A stretch of 64,000 bases of DNA from positions 2,896-66,895 of the forward strand of contig JBHLNS010000004.1 of the NCBI GenBank assembly GCA_048941285.1, written 5' to 3'. The position numbers were made by a program, and so were the translations under genes. Shown here one piece after another: positions 6,556 to 52,397 of the stretch; within the stretch, counting starts at the first letter, position 1; every line of letters begins with the position of its first letter. The notes beneath the pieces are model-generated. The model saw nothing but the letters and a program-made list of their open reading frames with translations, had not been told where the DNA came from and did no database searches. The stretch comes from Promethearchaeota archaeon (GTDB taxonomy: Archaea; Asgardarchaeota; Lokiarchaeia; Sigyniarchaeales; SOKP01).

Positions 6556-7410
6556 TTAATTTATAAGTAAATTATCTAAAAATGCTCTCACTTGATTATT
6601 GGCAGATTTTCCATGATTGAATAAGCCATTTAGATATCCATTTAGAAATACTTTGATTTCCAAGTTAAGGTCTTTAATATCGATGTAATTATATTGTGAT
6701 TGTAACTTCTTTCCCTCTACTACCGGTTTTATATGTTTTTCAATTAAGTTCAATGTAAAATTCACAACAGCATTATTTACTTTTTCTTTATCACCATTAG
6801 ATAATTCATAGTTACCTTGTATTGTTTGTTTTCTTATTTCATTCAATTCTAATAATAAATTTTCCAAATCAGGCAATAATTTTAACGACTTTATTTTTGT
6901 TGGCAAATCTTTCTCATTTTCATCAGGAACTTGAGCATCACAATATTTCTCCAAATTCGCGTAAAATCTAACTAAAAGTTTAAATGTATCTTGAATTTCA
7001 TACATGTTTTCCCAAATATTAAGATCTACACCTTTGAGAGATTTTTTAATGCTTATTTTGACTTTTTCAGAAACTTCAGTCAAGTATTGAGAATAATCCT
7101 CAAATGGAAAGCCAAAGTAGTAATTATTGTATTTTTCTTTAATTTCTTTATTGGTAATGCCGGGGGATTGAATCTTTTCTTTTTTGACGATTTCTTTAAC
7201 GAATTTCATGATATAATTGCAATTTGGACAATATGTGATCCAAGAACTAAGAATTACTTCAGCTGGTTTAACGCCACTAGAACTTATATACCCATTAAAC
7301 CCTGATAATAATTTTCCTTCAGAAGAAAAAGTAGCTTCCTCAGGATAAAATGTTCTAGGAATGAATTTATTATTACATAGTGGGCATTTTAGCTTTTCTT
7401 TTTTATTCAT
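6556..7410 (-). CDS. zinc-ribbon protein of unknown function
   Basis: 284-aa ORF. Its N-terminus carries CPLC...(48)...CPNC, a four-Cys ribbon arrangement. Confidence 0.55.
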   Translation of the reverse strand: MNKKEKLKCPLCNNKFIPRTFYPEEATFSSEGKLLSGFNGYISSSGVKPAEVILSSWITYCPNCNYIMKFVKEIVKKEKIQSPGITNKEIKEKYNNYYFGFPFEDYSQYLTEVSEKVKISIKKSLKGVDLNIWENMYEIQDTFKLLVRFYANLEKYCDAQVPDENEKDLPTKIKSLKLLPDLENLLLELNEIRKQTIQGNYELSNGDKEKVNNAVVNFTLNLIEKHIKPVVEGKKLQSQYNYIDIKDLNLEIKVFLNGYLNGLFNHGKSANNQVRAFLDNLLIN

Positions 7411-7609
7411 GACACTCTAAGCTATATTTTTAATTATCCTATAATTGATTATACTATATCACATATTTTAGTAGAATTCGTACTATATATACAAGAATAA
7501 TATCTAGACCATATTCCCTAAAAACAAACTCCATCTAAAAGTACAAAAAAAAAAGAACATTTACATTTAACACTTAAAAAACATTATAATTAAATTGGGG
7601 AAATTAAAA

Positions 7610-8719
7610 ATGTCAGATGATATAGTGTATGTTGATGCTGAAATCCTAGAAAATTTTATGAAGGACGTTTTTATAGGATTAGGTGTTCCCGAAAAAGATG
7701 CTCAAATTATTGCGGAAGTATTGATTACTTCAGATTTAAGAGGGATAGAATCACATGGCATTCAAAGATGTAAGATGTATTATGATCGTATAAAAGAAGG
7801 GATTTATGAAGCTAAAACGAAAATTGATGTTATAAAAGAAGGCCCAACAACAGCCTTATTGGATGGAAATTGCGGTATGGGGCATGTAATTGCTTATAAA
7901 GCAATGGAAATGGCAATTGAAAAAGCAAAAAAATATGGTCTTGGAGCAGTAGCAGTCAGAAATTCTACTCATTTTGGAATTGCAGGATATTATTCTCTTA
8001 TGGCGATAAAAGAAGGTATGATTGGGTTAACTGTTACAAATGCTAGACCTTCAATTCCACCAACATTTGGATGTGAACCTATGCTAGGAACAAATCCATT
8101 AACCATTGGAGCCCCAACAGATGAAAAATTTCCTTTCCTTCTTGATTGTGCTACGTCCATAATACAAAGAGGAAAAGTTGAAGTAAATGCAAGAGTCAAT
8201 AAACCACTTCCAGAAAACACAGTTATAAATGATAAAGGTGAAATTATGACAGATCCAAATAAAGTATTAGATGAAATGTTGAATAGAAAAGCATCTTTAT
8301 TGCCATTAGGAGGTAAAGGCGAAGAAACTGCGGGATATAAAGGATATGGATATGCTACAGTAGTAGAACTCCTTTCAGCAGCTCTTCAAAAAGGAATTTT
8401 CTTACGAGATACTCTTGGTATTGTTGAAAACGACCAGAAAAGGCTAAAGGTAGGGCATTTCTTCTTGGCAATCAACCTTGAGAACTTTATAGGAATAGAC
8501 TCATTTAAGAAAACAGCCGGTAATATAATGAGGGATTTGAGAACTTCAAGAAAGATTCCTGGAGCTGAACGAATCTATACTGCTGGAGAAAAGGAATTTC
8601 TTGCCGAAAATCAAAGAAGAAAATCAGGAATTCCCATCAACAAAAGTTTACAGGAAGACATTTTGATTATGAAAAAAGAACTCAAACTAATTGAATATCA
8701 TTTTCCCTTTTCATCATAA
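7610..8719 (+). CDS. Ldh_2-family (malate/L-lactate/sulfolactate-type) NAD(P)H-dependent 2-hydroxyacid dehydrogenase, copy 1
   Basis: Family signatures LRGIESHGIQR, GMGHV, AVRNSTHFGIAGYY, GTNP, ATSIIQRGKV and GYKGYGYA. The ATG at 7610 is preferred to the TTG at 7595. Paralog at 52617..53756. Confidence 0.85.
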   Translation: MSDDIVYVDAEILENFMKDVFIGLGVPEKDAQIIAEVLITSDLRGIESHGIQRCKMYYDRIKEGIYEAKTKIDVIKEGPTTALLDGNCGMGHVIAYKAMEMAIEKAKKYGLGAVAVRNSTHFGIAGYYSLMAIKEGMIGLTVTNARPSIPPTFGCEPMLGTNPLTIGAPTDEKFPFLLDCATSIIQRGKVEVNARVNKPLPENTVINDKGEIMTDPNKVLDEMLNRKASLLPLGGKGEETAGYKGYGYATVVELLSAALQKGIFLRDTLGIVENDQKRLKVGHFFLAINLENFIGIDSFKKTAGNIMRDLRTSRKIPGAERIYTAGEKEFLAENQRRKSGIPINKSLQEDILIMKKELKLIEYHFPFSS

Positions 8720-12220: not shown

Positions 12221-13519
12221 CTAGATCTGAAATCTTTTTTTTTTTGAGGAGGCTTTTTTCACTTTAGATTTAGTACTGACTGCATATTGAATCCCTAATA
12301 CTTCTAAAAGTCTTTTTCCTTCCTCAATTAATTGAATATCTGAACTGATCTCACCTTCAAAGTGATTAAATAAGATATAATCTTCAAAAACTCCTCTTTT
12401 CCTATTATATTTCCAGCTTGGCAAGTACCCTCGAGGTTCTAAACCAAATTTGTTAAAAAGTCTTTGGTGTTCCGGTTTATAGGCAGAAATAAAGATTTCA
12501 CAATATCTAATTCTTAAATCTTTACCGCTTTCTATAAATTTTTTTATAAAAATGTATAATTCTTCAAGAGAGCCTACTTTATATGTTGTCTTTTCAAAAT
12601 TTTTAATTTGTGGAGTATATAAAAACTCAAAATATGAGTCTGAACCTTCTATTATGAAACGAATAGTTTCATATCCAAACTTATCTTTTATTACTTGTTG
12701 TTTAAGTCTTTTTTGTAAAAGCTTTAATTTTTGGTAATCTAAATATAGATTATCCGAATTTTCAACATGATATGAACCCAAATTATAACGATTCGTAGAA
12801 TATGTAAAACAATTTAGCGCTTCAGGAATAAAAGTAGGAGTTTTGCTGCTTCGCATTGTTTCTATTGCTCGTTTATCATAGCAGATATGTAAAATATCAG
12901 ATTCCACTTTTCCAAAGAAGACATCTTTATTTGGGTAAAATGCAAGAGGACGTATTCCTCCAATTGAGAGTGCAAACTGAGATTTTGCATGAGCCGTGCG
13001 ATTTTCGCAGTACCACCGGTAAATTCTATCCTTATATTTTCTATACATTCCAATATAAGAACCAATTACAGCTTTAATAACATCAACATTGCCTTGATAT
13101 TGTTTTTTTAACATTAATCCCCTAATATAACCCATTTTTTCTTCAAAATCAAGAAGGAATGTAAAACAACCCATTGTGTTGTCATAGATGTCTTTAAACA
13201 CTACCCAATCACAGTTAGGGCTCTTTATCATTTTTTGTACTTCTTGAACATCTTCCATCTCTTTATAAGGATATGTGCCGTTATACAATTCGTTGTAGAT
13301 TTCAACAATTTCAAATGCGTCTTTAGGTTGAGCAAGCTTTAATATTGGACTTTTCTTCCTTATGCTAGCCTTATGAGCAATCTCAAAATTAAGATGCATC
13401 CCTTCATTAATACTTAGAATCTCTAAATTTTCAAATGGCTTTAGAAACTGACTAGTGGAATCCGGAAATGAATCATCTAATGAAATTATCAAATCAGTAG
13501 TTAGTTCTTCCGATATCAT
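12221..13519 (-). CDS. GNAT-like acyltransferase-fold protein (two domains)
   Basis: 432-aa ORF with segments resembling the GNAT core (GYIRGLMLKKQYQGNVDVIKAVIG; ENRTAHAKSQFALSIGGIRPLAFYP). Tentative. Confidence 0.4.
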   Translation of the reverse strand: MISEELTTDLIISLDDSFPDSTSQFLKPFENLEILSINEGMHLNFEIAHKASIRKKSPILKLAQPKDAFEIVEIYNELYNGTYPYKEMEDVQEVQKMIKSPNCDWVVFKDIYDNTMGCFTFLLDFEEKMGYIRGLMLKKQYQGNVDVIKAVIGSYIGMYRKYKDRIYRWYCENRTAHAKSQFALSIGGIRPLAFYPNKDVFFGKVESDILHICYDKRAIETMRSSKTPTFIPEALNCFTYSTNRYNLGSYHVENSDNLYLDYQKLKLLQKRLKQQVIKDKFGYETIRFIIEGSDSYFEFLYTPQIKNFEKTTYKVGSLEELYIFIKKFIESGKDLRIRYCEIFISAYKPEHQRLFNKFGLEPRGYLPSWKYNRKRGVFEDYILFNHFEGEISSDIQLIEEGKRLLEVLGIQYAVSTKSKVKKASSKKKRFQI

Positions 13520-43208: not shown

Positions 43209-44303
43209 ATGGGTGTTAAATTACAGAATCTTATTTTAAGAAAGGTTATTGAATTTCAAGATTTAAATGGGAAGATTGCGGCAATTGATGCTCCAAACAT
43301 AATTATGGGATTATTTAATTTTGCTGTGAAGAATCAAGATAATCTAAAAACAGGATTAATATTAGATCGAACACAACGACCAATTTCTCATCTATATGGT
43401 CTTCTGTATCGAGTTAATTTCTTTTACTCAAAGAATATTTTCCCGGTATTTTGCTTTGATGGAAAGGTTTCAGAACTTAAAAAAATAATAACAAAAGATC
43501 AATTACGGGATTTCATATTTACTCAGAACTGGTATAATGAGGCATTGAGAACTGGGAATAAAATCTTAGCTAGAGATATAGCACTAAGTAAGGAATATAT
43601 GTGGCAGAACATTATCAAAGAATCAAAACAACTTATTGGTGCGTTAGGTGTTCCCTATATAGAATCTCCCGCATCAGCAGAATCTCAATGTGCCTATTTA
43701 GTGAAAAGAGGATTGGTTGATTATTCTAATTCACAAGATTTTGATTCTCTCTTATTTGGATGTCCCTTATTAATCCAAAATCTTTCAAAATCATTAAGAA
43801 GGAAAATTCAAGGAAAGTGGCATTATCATAAGATACAACCCGTTGTTATTGATCTACAAAAGAATTTAAAAAATTTAGGTATTTCAATATTTCAATTAGT
43901 TGATATTGGAATATTAATAGGTACAGATTATTTTCCTGGTGTAGGTGGTATTGGATCAAAAAAAGCATTGAGTCTTGTTAGAAAATACAAATCTCTTGAA
44001 AAAATTATTCTAAAAGAGTATAATAAGTATGATTTTGGTCAATTAAACCCAGATCTTATTAAAAAAGTAAGAAAAATCTTTTTATTCCCTAATGTTAAAG
44101 GAAGAATTGATAACCTTTTGTGGAATCCCCCTAATAAAACAAGAATAAATTCATTATTGTGTGAAGAACATCATTTAAATAAAAGCCGTGTAGAAAAAAA
44201 TCTTGAACAATTTGAATTGAATTATAAGAAATGTAGAAATTATTTCATACAATATAAAAAACAACCAAAAAGACTCCAAGTTACATTAGATAATATCCCA
44301 TAA
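43209..44303 (+). CDS. fen: flap endonuclease 1 (FEN1)
   Basis: MGVKLQNLI...GKIAAIDAPN, HLYGLLYR, FCFDG, ESPASAESQCAYL, SQDFDSLLFG and H3TH GTDYFPGVGGIGSKKAL. A TATA element ends ~24 nt before the ATG. Confidence 0.9.
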   Translation: MGVKLQNLILRKVIEFQDLNGKIAAIDAPNIIMGLFNFAVKNQDNLKTGLILDRTQRPISHLYGLLYRVNFFYSKNIFPVFCFDGKVSELKKIITKDQLRDFIFTQNWYNEALRTGNKILARDIALSKEYMWQNIIKESKQLIGALGVPYIESPASAESQCAYLVKRGLVDYSNSQDFDSLLFGCPLLIQNLSKSLRRKIQGKWHYHKIQPVVIDLQKNLKNLGISIFQLVDIGILIGTDYFPGVGGIGSKKALSLVRKYKSLEKIILKEYNKYDFGQLNPDLIKKVRKIFLFPNVKGRIDNLLWNPPNKTRINSLLCEEHHLNKSRVEKNLEQFELNYKKCRNYFIQYKKQPKRLQVTLDNIP

Positions 44304-44319
44304 TTTTTCCTTTAAATGT
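44303..44319 (+). promoter_or_regulatory. BRE/TATA-like promoter element
   Basis: ATTTTTCCTTTAAATGT. Its position argues against the TTG at 44326 and for the ATG at 44410. Confidence 0.4.
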
Positions 44320-44409
44320 AAAATCTTGACAACGCTAACTCCTTTTTTTTATTTAAATAATCTCATAATTATCATAATAATAAGATTCAGCTTTAGCATC
44401 GAGGAAATC

Positions 44410-45018
44410 ATGACTCAGACACTAAAAAAGGAAATATTTGATACAGATAATATAAGTGATTACTATAAAAAGTATTATAAGTCTCAAAATAAATTTAAAC
44501 CGATTGTGTTAAACTATGTATTCCGAAATATCTCTTTTATTACAAAAAAGGAAAAAATTCGAACCATTACTCACTCTGAGTATAAAGAAATAAGTATCTG
44601 TTTAAATATCCCTATTATGCTTATTCACAAGGTAATCAGTGAATATTTAATTAACTTGTTAAGGTTCAAAAAATTTCTCAATAAAAATCCAAATTTACTT
44701 CATATTAAAGAACAGAAACACTTTATTAATATTCTTATTCATAGATTCTATCGACTAGCTCCTGTTTTTGACTATAAAAGGGCAAAACAAAATGCAAAAA
44801 TCCTTCAAATAAAATTAAATAAATTGTTTTTCTGGCCACAATTAATGACTCAATTAGCAATTATAATATTCGTAACTGATTTATTCGATAAGCAAAATTC
44901 TCAAAAAATAATTCAATCTAATTTAAGAGCTTTATGTAGTTGTTCTGCTTATGCATTTCATAGAACCAGAAATAAGCTGGGTTTAACCTCGAAATTTGCC
45001 AAAAGCTTAACAGCATAG
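44410..45018 (+). CDS. hypothetical helical protein (possibly cyclin/TFB-core-like)
   Basis: The ATG at 44410 with GAGGAA 5 nt upstream is preferred to the TTG at 44326. The C-terminal LAIIIFVTDLFDKQNSQKIIQSNLRALCSCSAYAFHRTRNKLGL is faintly TFIIB-repeat-like. The call is weak. Confidence 0.4.
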   Translation: MTQTLKKEIFDTDNISDYYKKYYKSQNKFKPIVLNYVFRNISFITKKEKIRTITHSEYKEISICLNIPIMLIHKVISEYLINLLRFKKFLNKNPNLLHIKEQKHFINILIHRFYRLAPVFDYKRAKQNAKILQIKLNKLFFWPQLMTQLAIIIFVTDLFDKQNSQKIIQSNLRALCSCSAYAFHRTRNKLGLTSKFAKSLTA

Positions 45019-45050
45019 TTTATGAATAACAAAGAATAATTTGAAAGAAA

Positions 45051-45998
45051 ATGTTAGAAAGAGCTGAAGAGATCTATCAAGCTTTATTAGATGGAGGGAT
45101 AAGTGAAGAGGAACTTATCCAGCAAATTAAGGAAAAAACAAATGAATTTCAAGGTTTTATGACCAAGCAAGCAATATTATATCTTATTGCAAAAGAAAAT
45201 GGAATTAATGTGGATTCCTCTGATAATGTGGAAATGGTTAATCACATTACTGAGGATATTATTGATTATAATGAGTTTTCTGTTCCAATCTCATCTATTG
45301 TTGAAAACATAAATAACATTGTCATTGCAGGGAGAGTGGAGAGGATTTACACAATTAGAGATTTTATAAAGAAAGATGGCACTCCCGGACGTATAGGGTC
45401 ATTTCAAATTTGTGATGCTTCTGAATGCATTAAAATCATTCTATGGAATGAGAATGTTGAAATTATGGAAAATGACCTTTTCAAGAAGGGCGAAATAATT
45501 CAATTAGTTGGGGGTTATTCTAAAAAAAATAGTGATGGGAAGTTAGAAGTCCATTTAAGTAGGCAGGGGACTATTATTTTGGCTCCAGAAACCGTACTTA
45601 TATCTGAAAATCTAAAACCTAATTTTGTGAAAAACAAATCCATTGAAATATCCGACAACACTAAACAAGAAAATTTGGATATAAAATCTCAATTATCTAT
45701 TCAAAACCTTCATAATAAGGATGGATACATTAGGTTTATTTCAGGGATAGTAAATGTTGAATTTTTTAAGGAATTCTCTCTAAAAAATGGTGAGAAATCA
45801 TTTCTGTTAAAGTTACAACTTTCAGATGGTTCTGCGTCAATAAAAGTGAATATTTGGGGTTTAAAGGCAGTAGAGTGTATAAAGTTAATTACCAATGGAG
45901 ATAAGGTCAAGTTTTTTAATGTAGTTATTAAGGAAAATTCATATACAAATGATAAAGAACTTAATTTTACGAGAAATTCTACCCTTAGTGTTCTATAA
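45051..45998 (+). CDS. RPA-like single-stranded DNA-binding protein (two OB folds)
   Basis: The N-terminal helical module ISEEELIQQIKEKTNEFQGFMTKQAILYLIAKENGINV is typical of archaeal RPA. Two OB-like units follow (IVIAGRVERIY...FQICDASECIKIILWN; ISGIVNVEF...LQLSDGSASIKVNIWG). Confidence 0.55.
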   Translation: MLERAEEIYQALLDGGISEEELIQQIKEKTNEFQGFMTKQAILYLIAKENGINVDSSDNVEMVNHITEDIIDYNEFSVPISSIVENINNIVIAGRVERIYTIRDFIKKDGTPGRIGSFQICDASECIKIILWNENVEIMENDLFKKGEIIQLVGGYSKKNSDGKLEVHLSRQGTIILAPETVLISENLKPNFVKNKSIEISDNTKQENLDIKSQLSIQNLHNKDGYIRFISGIVNVEFFKEFSLKNGEKSFLLKLQLSDGSASIKVNIWGLKAVECIKLITNGDKVKFFNVVIKENSYTNDKELNFTRNSTLSVL

Positions 45999-46084
45999 TT
46001 TTATTGGAAAAATTATAGAATTATAACTAATATATTTATTAAGGTAATGTTATTTGCTTTATTAAGAATTAAAAGGGTTATTAT

Positions 46085-47371
46085 TTGTTGCAGAAACAGA
46101 AAATTATTTTCGGATTTATCGTATTTTTCATGATTATTCCTTCTATTTATATATATAATACAGAAAATCAATTCGATCCATTCTTAAGCAAGGGATTATC
46201 ACCAAATTATTCTTTAGATGATATATCTAATACTATTAATTATAATGTTCTTACTGGTATAGAAGAAATTGAATATTTCAGTCCCACATTAGTAGAACAG
46301 TCAATCCAAACGATTATACAACCATTTTTTGGTGAAAATAGCTATAGCAATACCTTGGAAAATTTAACTCCAGAAATTTCGTATCCTTTTCCTCCTGACG
46401 ACAGGGTAAGAATAAATAATACTTCAATTTTTCCATGGAGTACAATAACTAAGTTGTATATAACTGCAGCAGACGATACAGAATGGATTGGATCTGGTGC
46501 AATGTTAGATGAGTTTCATGTACTTACATGTGGCCACTGTGTTTATTTACATGGTCATGGAGGTTGGGCTAGTGAAATAGTGGTTGTTCCAGGAATGAGA
46601 GGACCCTATAGACCTTTTGGTCAAGCATTTGCTACTAATTATCGTACATATACGGAATGGACGCAAAGTGAAATGTTCCAGCATGATTGGGCTGTTATCA
46701 CCCTTGATCGAACTATAGGAAATCAAACTGGTTGGATGGGAAGGAAGACTGAGGCACCATCGGACCCTATTTATCAGGGGACACTCCATACAGCTGGATA
46801 TCCCGGTGACTTAGATCTCGGGGAATATATGTATTATGATTCGGATGTAGGTAAGAATGCTGATGCTTATAATCATTGGTATTGGATGGATACCGCAGCG
46901 GGGCAAAGTGGCGGACCAGTATGGCAAGAAGAAAATGGGAGCTACTATATCTTAACTGTCAACGCTTATGAATATGAAAATGGTGCTGATGCAAATTTTG
47001 GTACACGATTAAATCAAGATAAATTTGATCAGATAAATATATGGTTAGCATCAGACACCCCTCCTGAAAATCCTGGTGGATGGGATCCTAATCTTATTGT
47101 GATCATTATTATTATAGCTTCTATTGGAGTTGTTATTGTAATTTTCAGTATTGTGATGGTATCAAGAAGATCACGTCAGAAATTGAAGTTTGTTGAGCCA
47201 TATGAGGGACCCATTACTGAATATAACTCAGAAAGCATCCCTTTAATTACCCCGCAATTATACTCTCAAAATCTTGGGATTTGCCCTAATTGTGGAATGC
47301 AATTTTTTCGGGATAATCAACGATTTTGTTCTAACTGCGGTAATGAGCTTCGTTTAGAATCAGAAGAATAA
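46085..47371 (+). CDS. membrane-anchored trypsin-like (S1B/glutamyl-endopeptidase-like) serine protease with cytoplasmic C-terminal zinc ribbon
   Basis: Catalytic triad contexts LTCGHCVY (His), DWAVITL (Asp) and AAGQSGGPVW (Ser). There is an N-terminal signal/anchor and a TM helix IVIIIIIASIGVVIVIFSIVMV followed by CPNCG...CSNCG. Confidence 0.8.
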   Translation: MLQKQKIIFGFIVFFMIIPSIYIYNTENQFDPFLSKGLSPNYSLDDISNTINYNVLTGIEEIEYFSPTLVEQSIQTIIQPFFGENSYSNTLENLTPEISYPFPPDDRVRINNTSIFPWSTITKLYITAADDTEWIGSGAMLDEFHVLTCGHCVYLHGHGGWASEIVVVPGMRGPYRPFGQAFATNYRTYTEWTQSEMFQHDWAVITLDRTIGNQTGWMGRKTEAPSDPIYQGTLHTAGYPGDLDLGEYMYYDSDVGKNADAYNHWYWMDTAAGQSGGPVWQEENGSYYILTVNAYEYENGADANFGTRLNQDKFDQINIWLASDTPPENPGGWDPNLIVIIIIIASIGVVIVIFSIVMVSRRSRQKLKFVEPYEGPITEYNSESIPLITPQLYSQNLGICPNCGMQFFRDNQRFCSNCGNELRLESEE

Positions 47372-47381
47372 AAATAATTTT

Positions 47382-47987
47382 TCATAATATTTGCTCCATC
47401 AGATTTTCTCCACACTCTTCGCAAAATTCTTGTTGCTTGTCGCGTATTTTTGCCCCACATTTTTTGCAATGACTTAATTGCTCTCTCAGTTTTCTCTCAG
47501 CTTCTTTTTTCTCTTCAATCATCTTAGATTCAATAAATTTTTCATAATCATCTTTTGGATGAATTCCCTTCTGAAGATTGGAAATTGTATCATTTAACCA
47601 CAACATAAATATGTATTTTTCTGTATCTTCTACAGTTTTAAATGATTGGTAATTTTTTGTTATTTTATCTGGAATATCTATGAATTTTTTATTCCCTATA
47701 TCTAAAAAAGTATTATAGAATAAGACTCCATCATAAATTAAATGTTTCACTTCTTGATTTTTCTCAACTTCATAAGCTAGATCGAAGCCAGTAGCACCCT
47801 TATTTATCATAATTAACAATTGCTTTAAAAACTCTAACTTTTTTTTCATATCATGCACTTTAGGTTTTTTATTTTTAGGATCTATGAAGAGATAACCACT
47901 TGACCTATAGTTGTCTGAATTTTTTCTATAATTTTTTTCTTTTTCCATCTTTTTCTGCAATTTTTCTAGTTGAGTACCTATTTTCAT
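47382..47987 (-). CDS. hypothetical protein with C-terminal zinc ribbon
   Basis: CKKCGAKIRDKQQEFCEECG at the C-terminus. The ATG at 47987 lies ~25 nt downstream of a TATA-like AAATTTAAAC, so it is preferred over the TTG at 48029. Confidence 0.5.
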   Translation of the reverse strand: MKIGTQLEKLQKKMEKEKNYRKNSDNYRSSGYLFIDPKNKKPKVHDMKKKLEFLKQLLIMINKGATGFDLAYEVEKNQEVKHLIYDGVLFYNTFLDIGNKKFIDIPDKITKNYQSFKTVEDTEKYIFMLWLNDTISNLQKGIHPKDDYEKFIESKMIEEKKEAERKLREQLSHCKKCGAKIRDKQQEFCEECGENLMEQIL

Positions 47988-48148
47988 GGTGTAAAACCCT
48001 TTTAAGAAGTTTAAATTTCGCGTCAACAATAAAAAATATTCCCTAGACTCAATAGGTGCTTTCTATATAAATATTTTTTCAAATTATACACCCAAATCTA
48101 ATTTGAATATTGAGAGATCTACTTTAAATTCCTGATGACCCTTATACT

Positions 48149-48168
48149 AATTTTTTCTTTATATATTC
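48149..48168 (+). promoter_or_regulatory. BRE/TATA-like promoter of the MglB/MglA-like cluster
   Basis: AATTTTTTCTTTATATATTC. Its position argues for the ATG at 48218 rather than the TTG at 48173. Confidence 0.4.
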
Positions 48169-48217
48169 TGCATTGAATTTTCATCAAAAATTAAAATATA
48201 GAAAAAAAGGAAAAAAA

Positions 48218-48766
48218 ATGATAACTCACATACCAAAAGTTTTATACCAAAATAAAATAACAGAAGTGTTGGATGATATTAGATATAACTATGGCAAATT
48301 AACACGAAAAGGGTATATCTACGGTTTAATAGCAATAGATCAAGATGCAAAAATAATAGCAATAGATTCCAGATTCGACAGAAAGTTAAACTATTGGGAC
48401 TTAAGCTCAATAGGAGCTGCATTATATGGAGTTGCTAGGCAAGGTCAAGATTTTTTCGAAACAGAATCCTTAGAAAGAGCTACTCTGATTTATAGTGATA
48501 TGCGGTTATTTGTCAAATCCATAGGTAACATAGAGCTTCAAAAGAAAGGAAAGCGAGATATTCTTATCGTTCTATTAACCGATAACGAGGTAAATTTAGG
48601 AGTAATGATCCTTCAGATGAGTAAGTTTGCGCAGAAAATTAAAGAAGAAATTGAAAAAAATGATCATATGAAAAATGTCTTAAAAATGCCTGAGAAAGAT
48701 ATCAAAGAGCATATCAAAGAATTAAAGAAACAGATGTTTAAAGATAAAATTGGTACAATATCCTAA
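48218..48766 (+). CDS. Roadblock/LC7 (MglB-like) domain protein
   Basis: Pattern GYIYGLIAIDQDAKIIAIDS...SSIGAALYGVARQGQDFF...LERATLIYSDMRLFVKSIG. The ATG at 48218 fits the TATA element at 48158-48166. It sits immediately upstream of the GTPase gene. Confidence 0.6.
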   Translation: MITHIPKVLYQNKITEVLDDIRYNYGKLTRKGYIYGLIAIDQDAKIIAIDSRFDRKLNYWDLSSIGAALYGVARQGQDFFETESLERATLIYSDMRLFVKSIGNIELQKKGKRDILIVLLTDNEVNLGVMILQMSKFAQKIKEEIEKNDHMKNVLKMPEKDIKEHIKELKKQMFKDKIGTIS

Positions 48767-48789
48767 GATTCTTGAGCTCAGGTGATTAT

Positions 48790-49446
48790 ATGGAATTAGA
48801 GCATAGAAATTTAGGAAAAGTAAAAGTAGAAGTAAGTGAAGATTTTGATTTCAATGATTCAGAAAATATGATTCAATTTAAGATTGTTTATTGGGGTCCC
48901 GGTGAAAGTGGTAAAACTACAAATTTTTTTAGATTACGTGAAAAATTTGATTTGATTAAATTAACTCGGGGGTATTCTATAGAAACCACCGAAGGTCGGA
49001 CTCTCTGGGAAGATTCCTTATATTTACTCTTCAAATTTACACTACATAATATTAAATTCAATATAATATGTCATGTAGTGACATGTACTGGACAGGAGAG
49101 ATTCCTTTCCACACGAGAGTATGTTTTAGATGGAGCTGATGGGATAATGTTTATAGGAGATTCTGAACCCGATAAAATCGAGCAAAATAAAAGAAGTTTT
49201 CGAGAACTGGTAAGTTTTGCTAAACCAAAGAATATCCCATACTTAATTCAGTTAAATAAACGGGATTTAGGAAACGCTATTTCTATTAAAGATTTTAAAC
49301 TTAATTTAGGTCTACCCCTCCAAGAATCATACCCAGATGGTTCTTTAGTTGTATATCCTTCAGAAGCCCTCCAAGGTAAAAATATAATTGAAAGTTTCAG
49401 AGATTTAATGCTCCAAGTAATTTTTAAATATTTTAAGGAAGAATGA
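48790..49446 (+). CDS. MglA-like Ras-superfamily small GTPase
   Basis: G1 GPGESGKT within KIVYWGPGESGKTTNFFRL, G3 TCTGQERF (MglA has TVPGQ), G4 NKRD (QLNKRDL) and GADGIMFIGDS. GGTGAT lies 3 nt before the ATG at 48790. Confidence 0.75.
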   Translation: MELEHRNLGKVKVEVSEDFDFNDSENMIQFKIVYWGPGESGKTTNFFRLREKFDLIKLTRGYSIETTEGRTLWEDSLYLLFKFTLHNIKFNIICHVVTCTGQERFLSTREYVLDGADGIMFIGDSEPDKIEQNKRSFRELVSFAKPKNIPYLIQLNKRDLGNAISIKDFKLNLGLPLQESYPDGSLVVYPSEALQGKNIIESFRDLMLQVIFKYFKEE

Positions 49447-49477
49447 TAACATTTTCGTTGAAATGTAAGGTGATCTC

Positions 49478-51196
49478 ATGGATACAAGTTCAGATTTTAT
49501 TCAACCAGAATTCCTTAACATAATTTTTTTTCAGCAAAAGAACTTGGTGGTTTTCCCATATGTGGATCTAAAACATCTTCATGGATTAGAAATATTTACT
49601 ACTGGGTATAATGTGGTTGATCTTGAATCCACGGCATTTCATAATCTTAAAGAAATATTAGAATTCGAATCGGATAATTCTTATTCTCAAAATCCTACTT
49701 TATATTTCATTTATAATATAGATCGAGAGAGATTAAAAGAAATAATGCAAATGGAAAGTATTCGATGCATTATTAATTCAAATGAAAATGTAAGTAATTT
49801 AGCAAATGGAAGTAAATTTATTTTCTTCAATAAAAAAAATAATCAGTTTTTAAACTATAATTCTACTGCTTCAGAATTAGAATTTGAAAATTTACTTATT
49901 AATAATTCGCAGGATGAGCATATCCTACAAGAAAACATTCATAAAATTAAGATGTCAGCAACCAGAATTTTTAAAGAATTGAATCAATCTGGCAAATTGG
50001 AAACTCTTCCTGATATCCTTGGCGAATATGATAAAAACTATTGGAACACGATATTAGATTTCACAAGCCGTTATTATGATATCAATATTCCAGATACTTC
50101 TGGAATAACATCTAAATCTCAAAAGAATTTGAATGATTTTTCGAAGGAATATGAAGTACTGATTTCAACAAATCAAGCACTTGGGAAGGAATTCATTCAA
50201 TTATTGCATGAATTCAGAAGTAAAAGAGTAAACTCAGCCCATTTAGAATTAGAAGAGTTATATAATCCTCTAAAACTTTTTAATTATTTAAGAAACCATC
50301 ACTGGAAAGAAGGGATTCCAAAAGACTTTGTTGAGGAATGGAGGGAGATGAATATCTCAAAATATCACCTAACTGAATCAGATCAGATAGATTTTGAGAC
50401 TATACTAGAAAAGTTAGGATTAGAAATCAAAGCTATGACGTTATCTCCAAATGTGGCTTTATTGCCAGAATTTGAAGAGGATTCTTTAAGTTTGGTGATG
50501 CCTTTACCTAGCAAAGACTGGAATATTTACAAAAATTGGATAATGGCTCAATTAACTGCATTAGATCAGTTAATTTTATCCATTCCAAGAACTTCTAATG
50601 TTAATTCCTATATGTTGAAAGAATTATCGGAATTAATTAACTTGCTTAAAATCAATAAAAAAGACATTATTTCAAGAGTTCCTCATAATGATGAGATAAT
50701 TCCGGGGGCTATTAAACTAGAAATTATGACACAAATGCAAAAAATGAGAATTGGAGATTGGGTGGAATTATTTGGAGTTCAAAATAAAATTGACTTTATT
50801 ATTGATTTTTTCAGACAATTTTCCAATTTTCATGATGAAGTATTTGGTATTGACAGATCAAAAAAAATTGAAATGCCTATTAAAATAAAAAAATTCAGCT
50901 TCCCCTCTAATCTTGAGAGAAAACTTTTATGGTTTAATCATTTTAGAAATAAAATTGTTCATGGAAAAATGAGCCGTGAGCAGACAAAAATGGCACTAAA
51001 AAATAATGAACCACGAATAAACTCCACATTTCTTCAATTTTTGGCTTATTTAATTAAAAAGCAAGTACATTTCTTGGCTAAAAATTATAACCTTGCAAAC
51101 TACTCCAAAATAAAAGATATAATAATGTTAAAATATCTAAAAAATCATATTTTCTCCCAAAAAGAAATTAAGAAAATTTGTGAATATTTAGAATAA
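49478..51196 (+). CDS. large protein of unknown function with C-terminal HEPN-like Rx4H motif
   Basis: 572-aa ORF with GGTGAT 3 nt before the ATG. The C-terminal helical region contains LWFNHFRNKIVHGK (R490-x4-H495). Confidence 0.55.
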   Translation: MDTSSDFIQPEFLNIIFFQQKNLVVFPYVDLKHLHGLEIFTTGYNVVDLESTAFHNLKEILEFESDNSYSQNPTLYFIYNIDRERLKEIMQMESIRCIINSNENVSNLANGSKFIFFNKKNNQFLNYNSTASELEFENLLINNSQDEHILQENIHKIKMSATRIFKELNQSGKLETLPDILGEYDKNYWNTILDFTSRYYDINIPDTSGITSKSQKNLNDFSKEYEVLISTNQALGKEFIQLLHEFRSKRVNSAHLELEELYNPLKLFNYLRNHHWKEGIPKDFVEEWREMNISKYHLTESDQIDFETILEKLGLEIKAMTLSPNVALLPEFEEDSLSLVMPLPSKDWNIYKNWIMAQLTALDQLILSIPRTSNVNSYMLKELSELINLLKINKKDIISRVPHNDEIIPGAIKLEIMTQMQKMRIGDWVELFGVQNKIDFIIDFFRQFSNFHDEVFGIDRSKKIEMPIKIKKFSFPSNLERKLLWFNHFRNKIVHGKMSREQTKMALKNNEPRINSTFLQFLAYLIKKQVHFLAKNYNLANYSKIKDIIMLKYLKNHIFSQKEIKKICEYLE

Positions 51197-51377
51197 AATC
51201 CTTTGTATATTATTATAGTTCGATTGATAATGAAATGTAATCATAGTAAATCTTAGCATTTAACCTGTGTGAATAGAATTCAAGAGACCTTAAACAATCT
51301 TTAATTATATTTGGTAATAATTTAAAAGAGTAATATCTTTATTTTCTCTTAAAGAAGCGTATATTTTTTTTAATGAT

Positions 51378-52223
51378 ATGAATATATGGGTTTTAGATTC
51401 TGAATCAGGAACTAAATTATTATACAAATCATTTTTGAAAACCGATGCTGATGAAGACATTGTTTCTGGTTTTTTAACAGCTTTTCACCATTTTTCTATG
51501 ATAGAATTTAAAGAATCATTAGATTCTATAGAAATGGGTGGTTTAAGATGGGTCTACATATTAGAAGAAAACTATAATTTACTTTTTGTAGCTGCTGATA
51601 CAAAGCATACAAAGACTGAGTTCATTTTAGCTAGACTTAACGTAATTAAAAATGCCTTTATAAAACAATTTGATTCTGTTTGGAAAAAAAAAGGGTGTAA
51701 TTGGGATGGAGATATTAACATTTTTTTGCCATTTCTCAATGAAATTGAAGATTATCATGATCAATGGGAAGAAGTGGAGGATCTGGCAAAAACTGCTGAC
51801 TTTTTTGATATTTTAGGTATCTTTCAAAGAATTCTAATAATGTTAAGAAATGTAATAGAAAAAAAAATGTATAGTAAATCAAAAACTTCAATTCTCAACA
51901 AAATAGAGAATATGTATAATGCTTTTATTGCTCAAAAAAATTTTAAGGATACCCCAGAACTTAAAAATATTACATTTAGTAGGGAATCTTGGTTCAACTT
52001 AATAGATATAAACCTGATAAAAAGTGATAAAAATTTAGTAAATGAAAATTTAAAATCAATTGTTTCTGGAATTGTTAATATCTTAAAGGAAGTGAAAGGG
52101 GTAAATGCATGTTTTAAATATTTTAGTGAAGAAAAAATATACCGTTATATTTTCAATAATATGAAACTGTTAAAAGATTTAAAATTAGACTTATTCTTGT
52201 TAGAAATCTTTTTATTATTATAG
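51378..52223 (+). CDS. protein with N-terminal roadblock/longin-like domain and helical C-terminal region
   Basis: MNIWVLDSESGTKLLYKSFL...DIVSGFLTAFHHFSMIEF...GGLRWVYILEENYNLLFVAADT...ILARLNVIKNAFIKQF follows a beta-beta-alpha-beta-beta-beta-alpha pattern. Confidence 0.45.
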   Translation: MNIWVLDSESGTKLLYKSFLKTDADEDIVSGFLTAFHHFSMIEFKESLDSIEMGGLRWVYILEENYNLLFVAADTKHTKTEFILARLNVIKNAFIKQFDSVWKKKGCNWDGDINIFLPFLNEIEDYHDQWEEVEDLAKTADFFDILGIFQRILIMLRNVIEKKMYSKSKTSILNKIENMYNAFIAQKNFKDTPELKNITFSRESWFNLIDINLIKSDKNLVNENLKSIVSGIVNILKEVKGVNACFKYFSEEKIYRYIFNNMKLLKDLKLDLFLLEIFLLL

Positions 52224-52278: not shown

Positions 52279-52397
52279 GGCTCCTGCCAAAAAGCCTCAA
52301 TAAAAGGCTCAAAATTTTCAAAAGGCAGAGTAGGTTATTCCTATGTGTAAGTAATTACACAACCAAAAGACAAAAATCCAGGGGATTGACAGGAGCC
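52279..52397. ncRNA. candidate structured RNA (unclassified)
   Basis: An 8-bp long-range helix, GGCTCCTG (52279-86) with CAGGAGCC (52390-97), encloses three hairpins: AGCC/GGCT at 52293-52309, TAGG/CCTA at 52331-52343, and TGTGTAA/TTACACA at 52344-52361. The region is locally G+C-enriched inside a 393-nt ORF-free gap. Confidence 0.3.

What the first reader, a model, noticed from the sequence alone, without database searches (positions are those of the whole stretch)
48149..52223. MglB-like roadblock + MglA-like GTPase + 572-aa HEPN-motif protein + longin/roadblock-like protein: candidate GTPase-switched effector module
Four co-oriented genes follow one TATA element, with spacers of 23, 31 and 181 nt. 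The second product matches the bacterial polarity GTPase MglA in its distinctive motifs (KIVYWGPGESGKTTN, T-x-x-GQ instead of DxxGQ, NKRD). The first is a roadblock/LC7 protein like the MglA GAP MglB. Downstream lie a large uncharacterised protein ending in a HEPN-like RNase motif and a protein with a second roadblock/longin-like domain, a fold typical of GTPase GEF/GAP platforms. MglA/MglB pairs are known in prokaryotes. I do not recognise coupling to a HEPN-type putative effector and a second regulator-like domain as a described system. It could be a polarity/trafficking module or a GTPase-gated conflict or stress system.
Basis: partly seen in the sequence, partly recalled or inferred. Interest (0 to 1): 0.75.

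Follow-up and report, generated by a model that had tools for sequence, protein, structure and literature searches.

The report
Asgard GTPase switch operon with RNase
Three of the four genes form a tightly conserved Asgard-archaeal operon (roadblock protein, MglA-like GTPase, large partner protein) whose third member ends in a probable RNA-cutting domain, which suggests a small-GTPase switch that controls RNA cleavage; the fourth gene is only a neighbour.

Summary
The four genes, the 23/31/181-nt spacers and the motifs are all present as described. The window comes from an AT-rich Asgard (Promethearchaeota) MAG.

Genes 1-3 form a real unit. They comprise a roadblock/MglB-like protein, an MglA-like GTPase and the 572-aa protein. 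They are adjacent, in the same order and tightly spaced in 16 of 16 loci, behind a conserved promoter motif.

The 572-aa family is modular:
- The first ~320 residues are highly conserved. The model shows a P-loop-NTPase-like alpha/beta fold followed by helices, with no Walker A motif. This matches the published description of the DENN + d-DENN module.
- The C-terminus is swappable. It is a helical domain with an invariant R-N-x3-H motif (this window), a Pfam-detectable NYN RNase, a second R..H domain, or nothing.

HEPN assignment is moderately supported: the motif, a borderline profile hit to the HEPN nuclease HepS, and the motif's position in the model. The fold search was not significant.

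Gene 4 (longin + helical domain) has its own conserved upstream region and is unlinked in several genomes, so it is not part of the operon.

A roadblock + small GTPase + "DENN" operon in Asgard archaea was reported in 2021 and may be this triad. I found no description of the RNase fusions. The triad itself is solidly established; the GTPase-gated RNase mechanism is inference.

The parts
48151..48166 (+). Conserved promoter element TTTTTTCTTTATATAT (T-rich stretch + TATA box) upstream of g1
   Evidence: The motif TTTTTTCTTTAWATAT is present upstream of the g1 orthologue in 16/16 loci. The exact TATA consensus lies at 48158-48165.
48218..48766 (+). g1: 182-aa roadblock/LC7 (MglB-like) protein with a K/E-rich C-terminal helical extension (about residues 137-182)
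   Evidence: There are 669 homologue clusters, and the top 120 are 84-97% identical. NCBI names it roadblock/LC7, JGI names it 'Roadblock/LC7/MglB family', and UniRef names it 'Roadblock/LAMTOR2 domain'. The top PDB hit is a Roadblock/LC7 protein (9jue), but only at E=0.17-0.22. There is no Pfam hit.
48790..49446 (+). g2: 218-aa MglA-like small GTPase, preceded by the Shine-Dalgarno sequence AGGTGAT
   Evidence: The best PDB hits are MglA at 5.8e-21 to 5e-20, against Arf/Arl at 1e-6 or weaker. Pfam Arf E=3.3e-9. It has the P-loop GPGESGKT, the switch-I Arg aligned to the MglA Arg finger, TCTGQ, and NKRD. It follows g1 by 20-39 nt in 15 of 16 loci; the 102-nt outlier in L009 is probably a start-codon mis-pick.
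49478..51196 (+). g3: 572-aa modular partner/effector protein, preceded by the Shine-Dalgarno sequence AGGTGAT
   Evidence: The family is found only in Asgard MAGs: 137 representatives among 1.84 billion proteins. It follows g2 by 5-95 nt in 16/16 loci. AF2 model pLDDT is 81.9.
49478..50431 (+). g3 residues 1-318: conserved N-terminal module, a 5-stranded alpha/beta domain (1-125) followed by a helical region (131-313); DENN/d-DENN-like or pseudo-AAA+-like
   Evidence: This is the most conserved part of the family. All 50 top Foldseek PDB hits are AAA+/clamp-loader/STAND ATPases, but weak (E 5e-3 to 0.1). No Walker A in 0/120 members. No Pfam DENN hit. The fold description matches Zhang et al. 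2012 for DENN.
50519..50650 (+). g3 residues 348-391: helical hairpin linker, flanked by low-confidence loops
   Evidence: AF2 model helices H348-367 and H374-391; pLDDT is below 50 at 319-338 and 393-406.
50705..51193 (+). g3 residues 410-572: all-alpha C-terminal domain, HEPN-like putative RNase
   Evidence: The domain model has pLDDT 84.7 and pTM 0.79. A profile hits the HEPN nuclease HepS (9oij) at E=1.3e-3, centred on the catalytic motif. Members weakly hit HEPN_RiboL-PSP, Abi_2, HEPN_Apea and DUF4145. In the Foldseek search, HepS is the top hit but not significant (E~0.8, TM 0.30-0.35). The same position is occupied by an NYN RNase in 41 of the 120 listed relatives.
50945..50962 (+). R490-N-K-I-V-H495: Rx4H motif, the predicted catalytic residues
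   Evidence: Translation check. R and H are invariant in 22/22 and 18/18 aligned members. The pattern R[NS]x3-4H is found in 30/30 members. In the model the motif sits at the C-terminal end of a long helix before a loop, as defined for HEPN.
51378..52223 (+). g4: 281-aa longin-like + helical-bundle protein; a neighbour, not a member of the operon
   Evidence: There are 819 homologue clusters, 68-100% identical among the 120 listed, nearly all of about 281 aa. Nine of 23 members hit PF19036 Fuz_longin_1 (best E=4.4e-4) and 6 of 23 hit DUF1940. UniRef names it 'FUZ/MON1/HPS1 first Longin domain'. Its linkage to the triad is variable. Its own upstream region is conserved whatever the upstream gene, and it has no Shine-Dalgarno sequence.

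Best explanation
Genes 1-3 are one operon that encodes a small-GTPase switch with an RNA-cleaving output.

- g2 is an MglA-type GTPase.
- g1 is its roadblock (MglB-like) partner. By analogy with MglB it dimerises and acts as a GAP/platform, and it has a C-terminal helix that could add a second contact.
- g3 is the third, obligatory subunit. Its very conserved N-terminal alpha/beta + helical module is P-loop-like but has no nucleotide-binding motifs, which is the architecture described for DENN + d-DENN. This module most likely docks onto the GTPase-roadblock complex, so that roadblock in trans plus the g3 N-terminus recreate a longin + DENN + d-DENN type regulator/effector.
- The g3 C-terminal domain is the output. 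In this genome it is a HEPN-type, metal-independent RNase (R490/H495).

Because HEPN nucleases need dimerisation to build an active site, the nucleotide state of g2 would gate RNase activity by assembling or positioning g3 dimers.

Shown: gene identities, strict linkage, operon signals, domain modularity, invariant motif.
Inferred: physical complex, GAP/GEF roles, RNase activity and its gating, RNA target.

g4 is a separate, independently transcribed longin protein.
For: Linkage:
- The triad keeps the same order in 16/16 loci, including loci whose flanks differ completely.
- Locus-tag spacing in database names agrees.
- Gaps are 20-39 nt (g1-g2, apart from one probable start mis-pick at 102 nt) and 5-95 nt (g2-g3). 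AGGTGAT Shine-Dalgarno sequences precede g2 in most loci and g3 in about half of them.
- A conserved promoter motif lies only before g1.

GTPase: MglA is the best hit at 6e-21, and the TxxGQ, Arg-finger and NKRD motifs are present.

Roadblock: three annotation pipelines name it so, and the top PDB hit is a roadblock protein.

g3 modularity:
- The N-terminal ~320 aa are conserved.
- C-terminal classes among the top 120 relatives: NYN 41, HEPN-like A 30, second R..H class 7, none 42.
- The ABR05 MAG carries two whole triads, one with the HEPN-like and one with the NYN C-terminus.

HEPN:
- The R..H pair is invariant.
- The profile hits HepS at E=1.3e-3 on the catalytic motif.
- Members give weak hits to HEPN-type families, Pfam's HEPN_RiboL-PSP and HEPN_Apea among them.
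- The motif's position in the model fits the HEPN definition.
- The domain is an autonomous module, also found fused to a zinc ribbon.

DENN-like reading:
- The model has an AAA+/P-loop-like fold without Walker A.
- This matches the published DENN description.
- An Asgard roadblock + GTPase + DENN operon has been reported.
Against: - No direct evidence exists for a complex or for RNase activity.
- Structural support for HEPN is not significant (Foldseek E~0.8, TM 0.30-0.35). No member reaches a Pfam gathering score for a HEPN family.
- No sequence or Foldseek hit to any DENN protein was obtained. The N-terminal module could instead be a degenerate AAA+/STAND-like domain.
- About a third of family members (42/120) lack any C-terminal nuclease domain. 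RNA cleavage is therefore an accessory output, not the core function of the triad.
- Liu et al. call their operon GTPase 'Rab-like', whereas g2 is clearly MglA-like, so identity of the two operons is unproven.
Confidence: 0.5

Rival explanations
1. The triad is purely a GTPase-regulatory module for membrane, polarity or nutrient signalling. It would be an FLCN/DENN-like GEF or GAP complex, as proposed by Liu et al. The C-terminal helical domain of g3 would not be a nuclease but a binding or localisation domain, and the R..H pair would serve another role.
For: - The core that is conserved everywhere is roadblock + GTPase + the g3 N-terminal module. 42/120 relatives have no C-terminal domain.
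- The extreme conservation of g1 and g2 suits a housekeeping regulator.
- A published proposal of FLCN-like function exists for a similar operon.
- The HEPN fold is not statistically established.
Against: - The alternative C-terminus in 41/120 relatives is a Pfam-significant NYN ribonuclease (E down to 5e-12). It is hard to see it as a mere localisation domain.
- R and H are invariant in all members of the HEPN-like class, while the rest of the domain drops to 25-30% identity.
- The HepS alignment centres on the residue whose mutation (H105A) was deposited as a separate structure and is presumably catalytic.
Confidence: 0.22
2. It is an anti-virus or abortive-infection system: a GTPase-gated toxin whose HEPN or NYN domain degrades host RNA on infection, like the NTP-dependent conflict systems of bacteria.
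For: - Effector swapping among HEPN, NYN, a second R..H domain and none is typical of conflict systems.
- The second R..H class matches the C-terminus of PADLOC defence-associated model PDLC02907 at E=5.5e-24, and one member hits Abi_2 at 4e-5.
- The only solved relative, HepS, is encoded by the Gifsy-1 prophage of Salmonella, and from my own knowledge it is an abortive-infection nuclease.
- One locus (L015) sits beside MmeI-type and GmrSD-type restriction genes.
- At least one genome has two triads.
Against: - g1 and g2 are 84-97% identical across hundreds of clusters, and the g3 N-terminus is also highly conserved. Defence genes normally diverge fast and are patchy.
- The operon keeps a fixed syntenic position next to FEN1 and an OB-fold/RPA-like gene, from Loki-type MAGs to a MAG labelled Thorarchaeota.
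- There is no PADLOC hit for the window's own g1-g4 apart from a spurious Cas9 match.
Confidence: 0.15
3. One reading: g4 (longin) is a functional fourth subunit, for example the GEF platform, co-regulated with the triad.
For: - g4 lies within 10 kb of the triad in 9 of 14 loci and directly after g3 in 4.
- Longin domains are GTPase platforms.
- g4 is as strongly conserved as g1 and g2.
Against: - In the MAG labelled Thorarchaeota (GCA_048883265.1) the triad and g4 lie on different contigs. In L017 no triad lies within the 6-10 kb of flank read on either side of g4.
- g4 is inverted in L004.
- g4 keeps its own conserved upstream segment whatever gene precedes it, and it lacks the Shine-Dalgarno sequence seen before g2 and g3.
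- These genomes share broad synteny, so proximity is not independent evidence.
- g4 stays with the Ldh_2 gene and a downstream structured RNA rather than with the triad.
Confidence: 0.08

Closest known systems
MglA/MglB polarity switch of Myxococcus xanthus and Thermus thermophilus (Miertzschke et al. 2011; PDB 3t12, 3t1q)
   Same: An adjacent roadblock gene and a Ras-like GTPase gene. The GTPase shares the TxxGQ motif, the switch-I arginine and NKRD, and MglA is its best solved relative. The roadblock protein has a C-terminal helical extension, as MglB does.
   Different: The gene order is roadblock first. There is an obligatory third gene with no counterpart in the bacterial system. No motility genes lie nearby. 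The GTPase has a ~28-residue N-terminal extension. The family is Asgard-specific and far more conserved.
Asgard 'LAMTOR-like roadblock + Rab-like small GTPase + DENN-domain protein' operon (Liu et al. 2021, Nature 593:553; preprint 10.1101/2020.10.19.343400)
   Same: [quoted passage not shown] The g3 N-terminal module has the P-loop-like alpha/beta + helical architecture, without nucleotide-binding residues, that defines DENN + d-DENN.
   Different: Identity is unproven. I obtained no DENN hit by Pfam, PDB profile search or Foldseek. Their GTPase is called Rab-like, whereas g2 is MglA-like. The text available to me does not mention RNase (HEPN/NYN) fusions.
Eukaryotic DENN / folliculin-FNIP / C9orf72-SMCR8 modules acting on Rab, Rag and Arf GTPases with Ragulator roadblock dimers
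   Same: The logic of a longin/roadblock platform plus a DENN-type alpha/beta + helical module contacting a small GTPase.
   Different: Here the roadblock domain is a separate protein, the GTPase is of the prokaryotic MglA type, and the DENN-like protein carries a nuclease domain. I know of no such architecture in eukaryotes.
HEPN ribonucleases controlled by an attached regulatory module (RNase L and Ire1 KEN domains, Las1-Grc3, Csm6/Csx1, PrrC/RloC, HepS)
   Same: A C-terminal all-alpha domain with Rx4-6H, a polar residue after the R, and the motif at the end of a helix. Activity in known cases depends on regulated dimerisation or on nucleotide binding by a neighbouring domain (established knowledge).
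   Different: The proposed regulator is a Ras-superfamily GTPase with a roadblock partner, which I found in no paper. The domain is not a member of any Pfam HEPN family at gathering threshold.
NTP-dependent, effector-swapping conflict systems of multicellular bacteria (Kaur, Burroughs, Iyer, Aravind 2020, PMC7159879)
   Same: An NTPase-centred core with interchangeable nuclease effector domains.
   Different: The core here is extremely conserved, syntenic and apparently lineage-wide, with no sign of mobility. It uses MglA/roadblock rather than STAND or GTPase-of-immunity-type cores.

Membership tests
MglA family of Ras-like GTPases (g2) | Ras-like G domain with P-loop GxxxxGK[ST] and G4 NKxD | tested here: met
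   GPGESGKT and NKRD are present. Pfam Arf E=3.3e-9.
MglA family of Ras-like GTPases (g2) | G3 motif TxxGQ instead of DxxGQ | tested here: met
   VTCTGQ in g2 aligns to TVPGQ of T. thermophilus and M. xanthus MglA. It is conserved in the L014 and L015 orthologues.
MglA family of Ras-like GTPases (g2) | Intrinsic arginine finger in switch I | tested here: met
   EGRTLWED aligns to DERTLFFD / DRTLFFD of MglA. The catalytic role itself is not testable here.
MglA family of Ras-like GTPases (g2) | Closer to MglA than to other Ras-superfamily groups | tested here: met
   Four MglA sequences score E=5.8e-21 to 5.2e-20. The next best (Arf3p, Arl8) score 1e-6 or weaker, and Thor Rab scores 3.5e-5. No phylogeny was made, so the subgroup (MglA1 versus MglA2-5) is not assigned.
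MglA family of Ras-like GTPases (g2) | Cognate roadblock (mglB-like) gene adjacent | tested here: met
   g1 lies directly upstream in 16/16 loci.
Roadblock/LC7/MglB superfamily (g1) | Significant profile match to a roadblock family or structure | tested here: inconclusive
   Pfam and NCBIfam give no hit. The top PDB hit is 'Roadblock/LC7 domain protein' 9jue, but at E=0.22 with a single sequence and 0.17 with a profile. NCBI, JGI (COG 'Roadblock/LC7/MglB family') and UniRef (Roadblock/LAMTOR2) all name it roadblock.
Roadblock/LC7/MglB superfamily (g1) | GAP activity on, and 2:1 complex with, the cognate GTPase | not testable with these tools
   This needs AF-Multimer or biochemistry.
HEPN superfamily (g3 residues 410-572) | Rx4-6H motif with a polar residue after the R | tested here: met
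   The window has RNKIVH. R[NS]x3-4H is present in 30/30 members. R and H are invariant.
HEPN superfamily (g3 residues 410-572) | Motif located at the end of core helix 3 and the start of the loop to helix 4, with a helical insert between helices 2 and 3 | tested here: met
   In the domain model (pLDDT 84.7) the motif lies at fragment residues 109-114, at the C-terminal end of helix 96-114. A loop and the long helix 130-155 follow. The short helix 85-91 lies between the two preceding long helices. This rests on a predicted structure only.
HEPN superfamily (g3 residues 410-572) | Statistically significant sequence or structure match to a known HEPN family | tested here: inconclusive
   The profile versus PDB gives HepS 9oij at E=1.3e-3 over the motif region only. 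Single members hit HEPN_RiboL-PSP at 6.7e-4, Abi_2 at 0.033 and HEPN_Apea at 0.1, all below gathering scores. In the Foldseek search HepS is the top hit at E 0.8-1.4 with TM 0.30-0.35, and the HEPN toxin 5yep gives TM 0.34/0.46; neither is significant. BFVD gave nothing.
HEPN superfamily (g3 residues 410-572) | Conserved acidic residue in helix 2 | tested here: inconclusive
   A D/E is common in the N(L/F)(H/Y)D/E stretch but is absent in several members such as P0011, P0059 and P0065.
HEPN superfamily (g3 residues 410-572) | Metal-independent RNase activity | not testable with these tools
   This needs an enzyme assay.
DENN module (g3 residues 1-318) | Central DENN: 5-stranded alpha/beta three-layer sandwich with minimal P-loop-NTPase topology and no nucleotide-binding residues, followed by an all-alpha d-DENN | tested here: inconclusive
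   The model shows beta-alpha units with 5 strands (residues 23-118) followed by helices 131-313. All top-50 Foldseek hits are P-loop AAA+/STAND ATPases at E 5e-3 to 0.1. No Walker A in 0/120 members. This is consistent with the description in PMC3521125, but it fits a degenerate AAA+ domain equally well.
DENN module (g3 residues 1-318) | Detectable homology to DENN/FLCN/SMCR8/C9orf72 proteins | tested here: not met
DENN module (g3 residues 1-318) | N-terminal longin (u-DENN) domain in the same protein | tested here: not met
   g3 starts directly with the alpha/beta domain. A roadblock domain is supplied only in trans by g1.
Longin domain, FUZ/MON1/HPS1 type (g4) | Profile match to a longin family | tested here: inconclusive
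   The window protein itself has no hit. Nine of 23 family members hit PF19036 Fuz_longin_1, best E=4.4e-4, with no hit significant at Pfam's usual level. UniRef names a 74%-identical member 'FUZ/MON1/HPS1 first Longin domain-containing protein'. The profile versus PDB gave no longin hit. No structure was modelled.
NYN / Zc3h12a-like RNase (paralogues of g3, not the window protein) | Pfam PF11977 above the gathering score at the C-terminus | tested here: met
   P0019 scores 39.9 bits, P0025 37.9 and P0119 32.3, against a cut-off of 23, at residues ~414-552. Fifteen of 68 aligned relatives hit it, best E=5e-12. The window's g3 does not carry this domain.

The most novel reading that the evidence does not exclude
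A lineage-wide, housekeeping small-GTPase switch of Asgard archaea has direct RNA cleavage as its output. An MglA-type GTPase with a roadblock partner and a split DENN-like module would gate a HEPN or NYN ribonuclease. This links the ancestors of eukaryotic trafficking-type GTPase regulators to RNA decay or processing, an output not known for any Ras-superfamily GTPase.
Probability: 0.3. Interest if true: 0.8.

Novelty: new variant of a known kind. Interest (0 to 1): 0.6.

Why it matters
Asgard archaea are the closest known relatives of eukaryotes, and their many small GTPases, roadblock and longin proteins are mostly orphans. Published work notes that GTPases and candidate regulators are generally not in operons, so partners cannot be assigned (PMC10933270). 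This triad is an exception. It gives a fixed GTPase-regulator-partner set that is among the most conserved proteins of the lineage, so it can be tested directly by co-expression, structure and GTPase assays.

If the third protein really carries a DENN-like module, the triad would be a prokaryotic, split version of the longin + DENN GTPase regulators of eukaryotes. If its HEPN and NYN domains are active, it would show a Ras-superfamily switch wired to RNA cleavage. That is a new kind of output and would revise the default assumption that these Asgard proteins act in membrane trafficking.

Tried and rejected
- Exact look-up of g3 in the gene-position index found nothing on record.
- The full-length g3 profile against PDB sequences gave only a marginal, probably compositional hit to the ARIH1 Ariadne domain (E=0.003) and coiled-coil proteins. 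I rejected this as evidence of homology.
- Pfam scans of g3, 68 relatives and the 10 most distant representatives found no DENN, AAA or HEPN family above threshold.
- PADLOC gave no credible hit for the window's four proteins. I judged the Cas9 match (E=4.5e-4, spread over residues 110-535) spurious.
- The BFVD viral fold search of the C-terminal domain returned nothing informative.
- hhalign between the two R..H C-terminal classes aligned the motif, but with probability 1.2%. I make no claim that they are homologous.
- The g4 profile against the PDB gave no longin hit, only a weak match to the helical protein TA1238.
- Literature searches for MglA + HEPN, for roadblock + HEPN + GTPase, for Asgard + GTPase + roadblock + NYN, and for DENN + NYN found no description of this architecture.
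- The Nature version of Liu et al. and its supplements were not held.
- I did not use the sigma-70 promoter/terminator scanner, because it does not apply to archaea.
- Taxon labels of the MAGs span Loki, Hermod, Hod, Thor and Odin. Most come from a single submission series. Given the 85-97% protein identities and shared synteny, I do not rely on them as proof of phylum-wide spread.

Full report
**What is in the sequence.** The window is 27-33% G+C. It belongs to an Asgard MAG: g3 and g4 are identical to proteins of a 'Promethearchaeota archaeon' on a 146-kb contig. Four co-oriented genes lie at 48218-48766 (g1, 182 aa), 48790-49446 (g2, 218 aa), 49478-51196 (g3, 572 aa) and 51378-52223 (g4, 281 aa). 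The spacers are 23, 31 and 181 nt. All four are real genes with hundreds of conserved homologue clusters.

**The first two genes.**
- g2 is an MglA-type GTPase. Its best solved relatives are four MglA sequences (E=5.8e-21 to 5.2e-20), far ahead of Arf/Arl (1e-6 or weaker) and an Asgard Rab (3.5e-5).
- The alignment shows the P-loop, the switch-I arginine in the position of the MglA arginine finger, TCTGQ in place of DxxGQ, and NKRD.
- g1 is named roadblock/LC7/MglB by NCBI, JGI and UniRef. Its top PDB hit is a roadblock/LC7 protein.
- My own statistics for g1 are weak, however (E=0.17-0.22; no Pfam or NCBIfam hit). By eye its sequence follows the alpha-beta-beta-alpha-beta-beta-beta-alpha pattern of the fold and then has a ~45-residue K/E-rich tail. 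That reading is inference.
- Both proteins are extraordinarily conserved: 84-97% identity over the 120 best g1 clusters, and comparable identity for g2 even in a MAG labelled Thorarchaeota.

**The unit is three genes, not four.**
- I fetched 13 loci from species-representative genomes with the g3 protein and two more from distant g3 homologues.
- In all 16 loci, counting the window, the order is g1-g2-g3 on one strand. This holds even where the flanking genes are entirely different (L002, L008, L010, L012, L015).
- Gaps are 20-39 nt between g1 and g2. L009 gives 102 nt, which is probably a start-codon mis-pick.
- Gaps are 5-95 nt between g2 and g3, once starts are taken from the protein matches.
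- The Shine-Dalgarno sequence AGGTGAT precedes g2 in most loci and g3 in about half of them.
- Upstream of g1, the motif TTTTTTCTTTAWATAT is present in all 16 loci.
- g4 behaves differently:
  - It directly follows g3 in 4 loci, is displaced by 1-10 genes or inverted in 5, and is absent within 10 kb in 5.
  - In one MAG the triad and g4 lie on different contigs. In a Lokiarchaeum-type contig g4 has no triad in the flanks read.
  - It has no Shine-Dalgarno sequence.
  - It carries its own ~60-nt upstream segment, conserved regardless of which gene precedes it.
- These genomes share broad synteny (FEN1, an OB-fold protein and so on), so mere proximity of g4 is weak evidence. I conclude that g4 is an independently transcribed neighbour.

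**The 572-aa protein is modular.**
- Its family is narrow: 137 representatives at 50% identity among 1.84 billion proteins. Every named hit but one comes from an Asgard MAG.
- The first ~320 residues are the conserved core (33 invariant positions in 68 sequences).
- After a helical hairpin the C-terminus varies. Among the 120 best relatives:
  - 41 end in an NYN/Zc3h12a ribonuclease domain that passes Pfam's threshold.
  - 30 end in the domain found here.
  - 7 end in a third domain with an invariant R..H pair. One member of that class hits Pfam Abi_2 at 4e-5, and two match the C-terminus of a PADLOC defence-associated model at 5.5e-24 and 3e-19.
  - 42 stop after the hairpin.
- One MAG (ABR05) has two complete triads, one of the HEPN-like class and one of the NYN class.

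**Is the C-terminal domain a HEPN RNase?**
- For:
  - R490 and H495 are invariant while the rest of the domain falls to 25-30% identity. The residue after R is N (rarely S), as in typical HEPN motifs (definition).
  - A profile of the domain hits the solved HEPN nuclease HepS at E=1.3e-3. The alignment runs across the residue whose H105A mutant was deposited as a second structure.
  - Individual members weakly hit HEPN_RiboL-PSP, Abi_2, HEPN_Apea and DUF4145.
  - In a confident model (pLDDT 84.7, pTM 0.79) the domain is all-alpha. The motif sits at the C-terminal end of a long helix before a loop and another long helix, with a short helical insert earlier, as HEPN is defined.
  - The same position holds a known RNase in paralogues.
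- Against:
  - The fold search is not significant. HepS is the top hit, but at E~0.8 and TM 0.30-0.35.
  - No Pfam HEPN family is reached at gathering score.
- I rate HEPN membership as likely, about 0.65.
- The domain is an autonomous module. It recurs fused to a zinc ribbon in ~285-aa proteins, including one in this window at 6559-7416 (-) that has lost the histidine.

**What is the N-terminal module?**
- The model (pLDDT 81.9) shows five beta-alpha units (residues 23-118) followed by helices up to residue 313.
- All 50 top Foldseek hits in the PDB are AAA+/clamp-loader/STAND ATPases, but they are weak (E 5e-3 to 0.1).
- None of 120 family members has a Walker A motif.
- This is precisely how Zhang et al. 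2012 describe the central DENN domain: a 5-stranded alpha/beta sandwich with the topology of a minimal P-loop NTPase domain and no nucleotide-binding residues, followed by an all-alpha d-DENN.
- Liu et al. 2021 reported an operon 'conserved in most Asgard archaea' encoding a LAMTOR-like roadblock protein, a small GTPase outside the Rag family, and a DENN-domain protein. They proposed an FLCN-like function.
- I could not prove that this is the same operon. No DENN hit appeared in any search. They call the GTPase Rab-like. Their figure and supplements were not available. I put the probability of identity at about one half. A degenerate AAA+ domain is the alternative.

**Mechanism.**
- The best-supported reading is a three-protein GTPase switch. 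The MglA-like g2 is cycled by a roadblock dimer (g1). g3 docks through its conserved N-terminal module, and its C-terminus is an interchangeable RNA-cleaving output.
- HEPN nucleases work as dimers, so nucleotide-dependent assembly could gate activity.
- Only the gene identities, linkage, operon signals, modularity and motif conservation are shown. Complex formation, GAP/GEF roles, RNase activity, gating and the RNA target are inferred.
- A third of family members lack a nuclease domain, so the core function of the triad is GTPase regulation or signalling, and RNA cleavage is one of its outputs.
- The extreme conservation and fixed syntenic position argue for a cellular role rather than a defence island. 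Effector swapping, the HepS and PADLOC similarities and the L015 context keep a conflict role open.

**Comparison and novelty.**
- MglA/MglB pairs in archaea, including Asgard, are known (PMC10933270; PMC13408092), and a roadblock + GTPase + DENN operon has been reported.
- I did not find the third protein described as a modular carrier of HEPN-like or NYN RNase domains in any paper searched.
- Tran et al. 2024 state that Asgard GTPases are generally not in operons with roadblock or longin genes. This triad is therefore a useful exception.
- I classify it as a new variant of a known kind. Interest is 0.6.

Noticed in passing
window 52279-52397 (+), in the g4-Ldh_2 spacer; also L001 ~12795-12940, L004 8036-8177 (-), L005 ~12706-12850, L006 8118-8254, L013 ~8018-8170, L016 10913-11055, L017 7683-7889: A ~120-nt conserved, G+C-richer element lies immediately downstream of every g4 homologue examined, in g4's orientation, and is followed by a T-run. 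The predicted fold is an 8-bp closing stem (GGCUCCUG/CAGGAGCC) with four hairpins. Five of 28 pairs show compensatory changes. The fold z-score is -3.2 on the + strand and -5.2 on the - strand. There is no Rfam match. It is a candidate novel Asgard small RNA.
   Followed up: partly
window 6559-7416 (-); L004 11637-12542; L016 5116-6039; L017 9392-10273: A family of ~285-aa proteins has an N-terminal CPxC...CPxC zinc ribbon fused to the same HEPN-like domain as the g3 C-terminus. The L016 copy (from the MAG labelled Thorarchaeota) keeps RNTIVH and L017 has RIQTIH, but the window and L004 copies have IRKQTIQ (His to Gln), so they are probably inactive. In L004 and L017 the gene lies beside Ldh_2 and g4.
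   Followed up: partly
relatives P0029 (residues 378-549) and P0090 (residues 403-565); loci L005 and L015: The third C-terminal class of the g3 family matches positions ~696-864 of PADLOC model PDLC02907 ('TPR') at E=5.5e-24 and 3e-19. This effector domain is therefore shared with a defence-associated protein. The R..H spacing varies between Rx4H and Rx2H within the class.
   Followed up: partly
g3 residues 111-192 (window 49808-50053): The family profile gives a marginal hit (E~0.003) to the C-terminal part of the Ariadne domain of human ARIH1 (residues 476-556). It is probably compositional, but the aligned stretch FxFxxKKNNQ...LE is highly conserved in the family.
   Followed up: no
window 43209-47371 and loci L001, L003, L005, L007, L009, L011-L014: The triad keeps a syntenic position downstream of FEN1 (XPG_I; window 43209-44303), a 230-aa protein and a 315-aa OB-fold/RPA-like protein. 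The FEN1 linkage extends to the MAG labelled Thorarchaeota.
   Followed up: no
L010 6954-7568 (-), L011 16905-17519 (-), L014 12053-12646 (-): Second, more distant small GTPases of ~197 aa lie a few kb downstream of the triad. Those in L010 and L011 match g2 at E~1e-23 and are flanked by conserved 637-aa and 534-aa proteins of unknown function. The L014 one is identified only by its Pfam Arf/Ras hits.
   Followed up: no
window 47382-48029 (-): A divergently transcribed gene of about 200 aa has a C-terminal zinc ribbon (CxxC...CxxC). It is present upstream of g1 only in the window and L005 (a homologue in L003 lies downstream of the triad), so it is not part of the unit.
   Followed up: no
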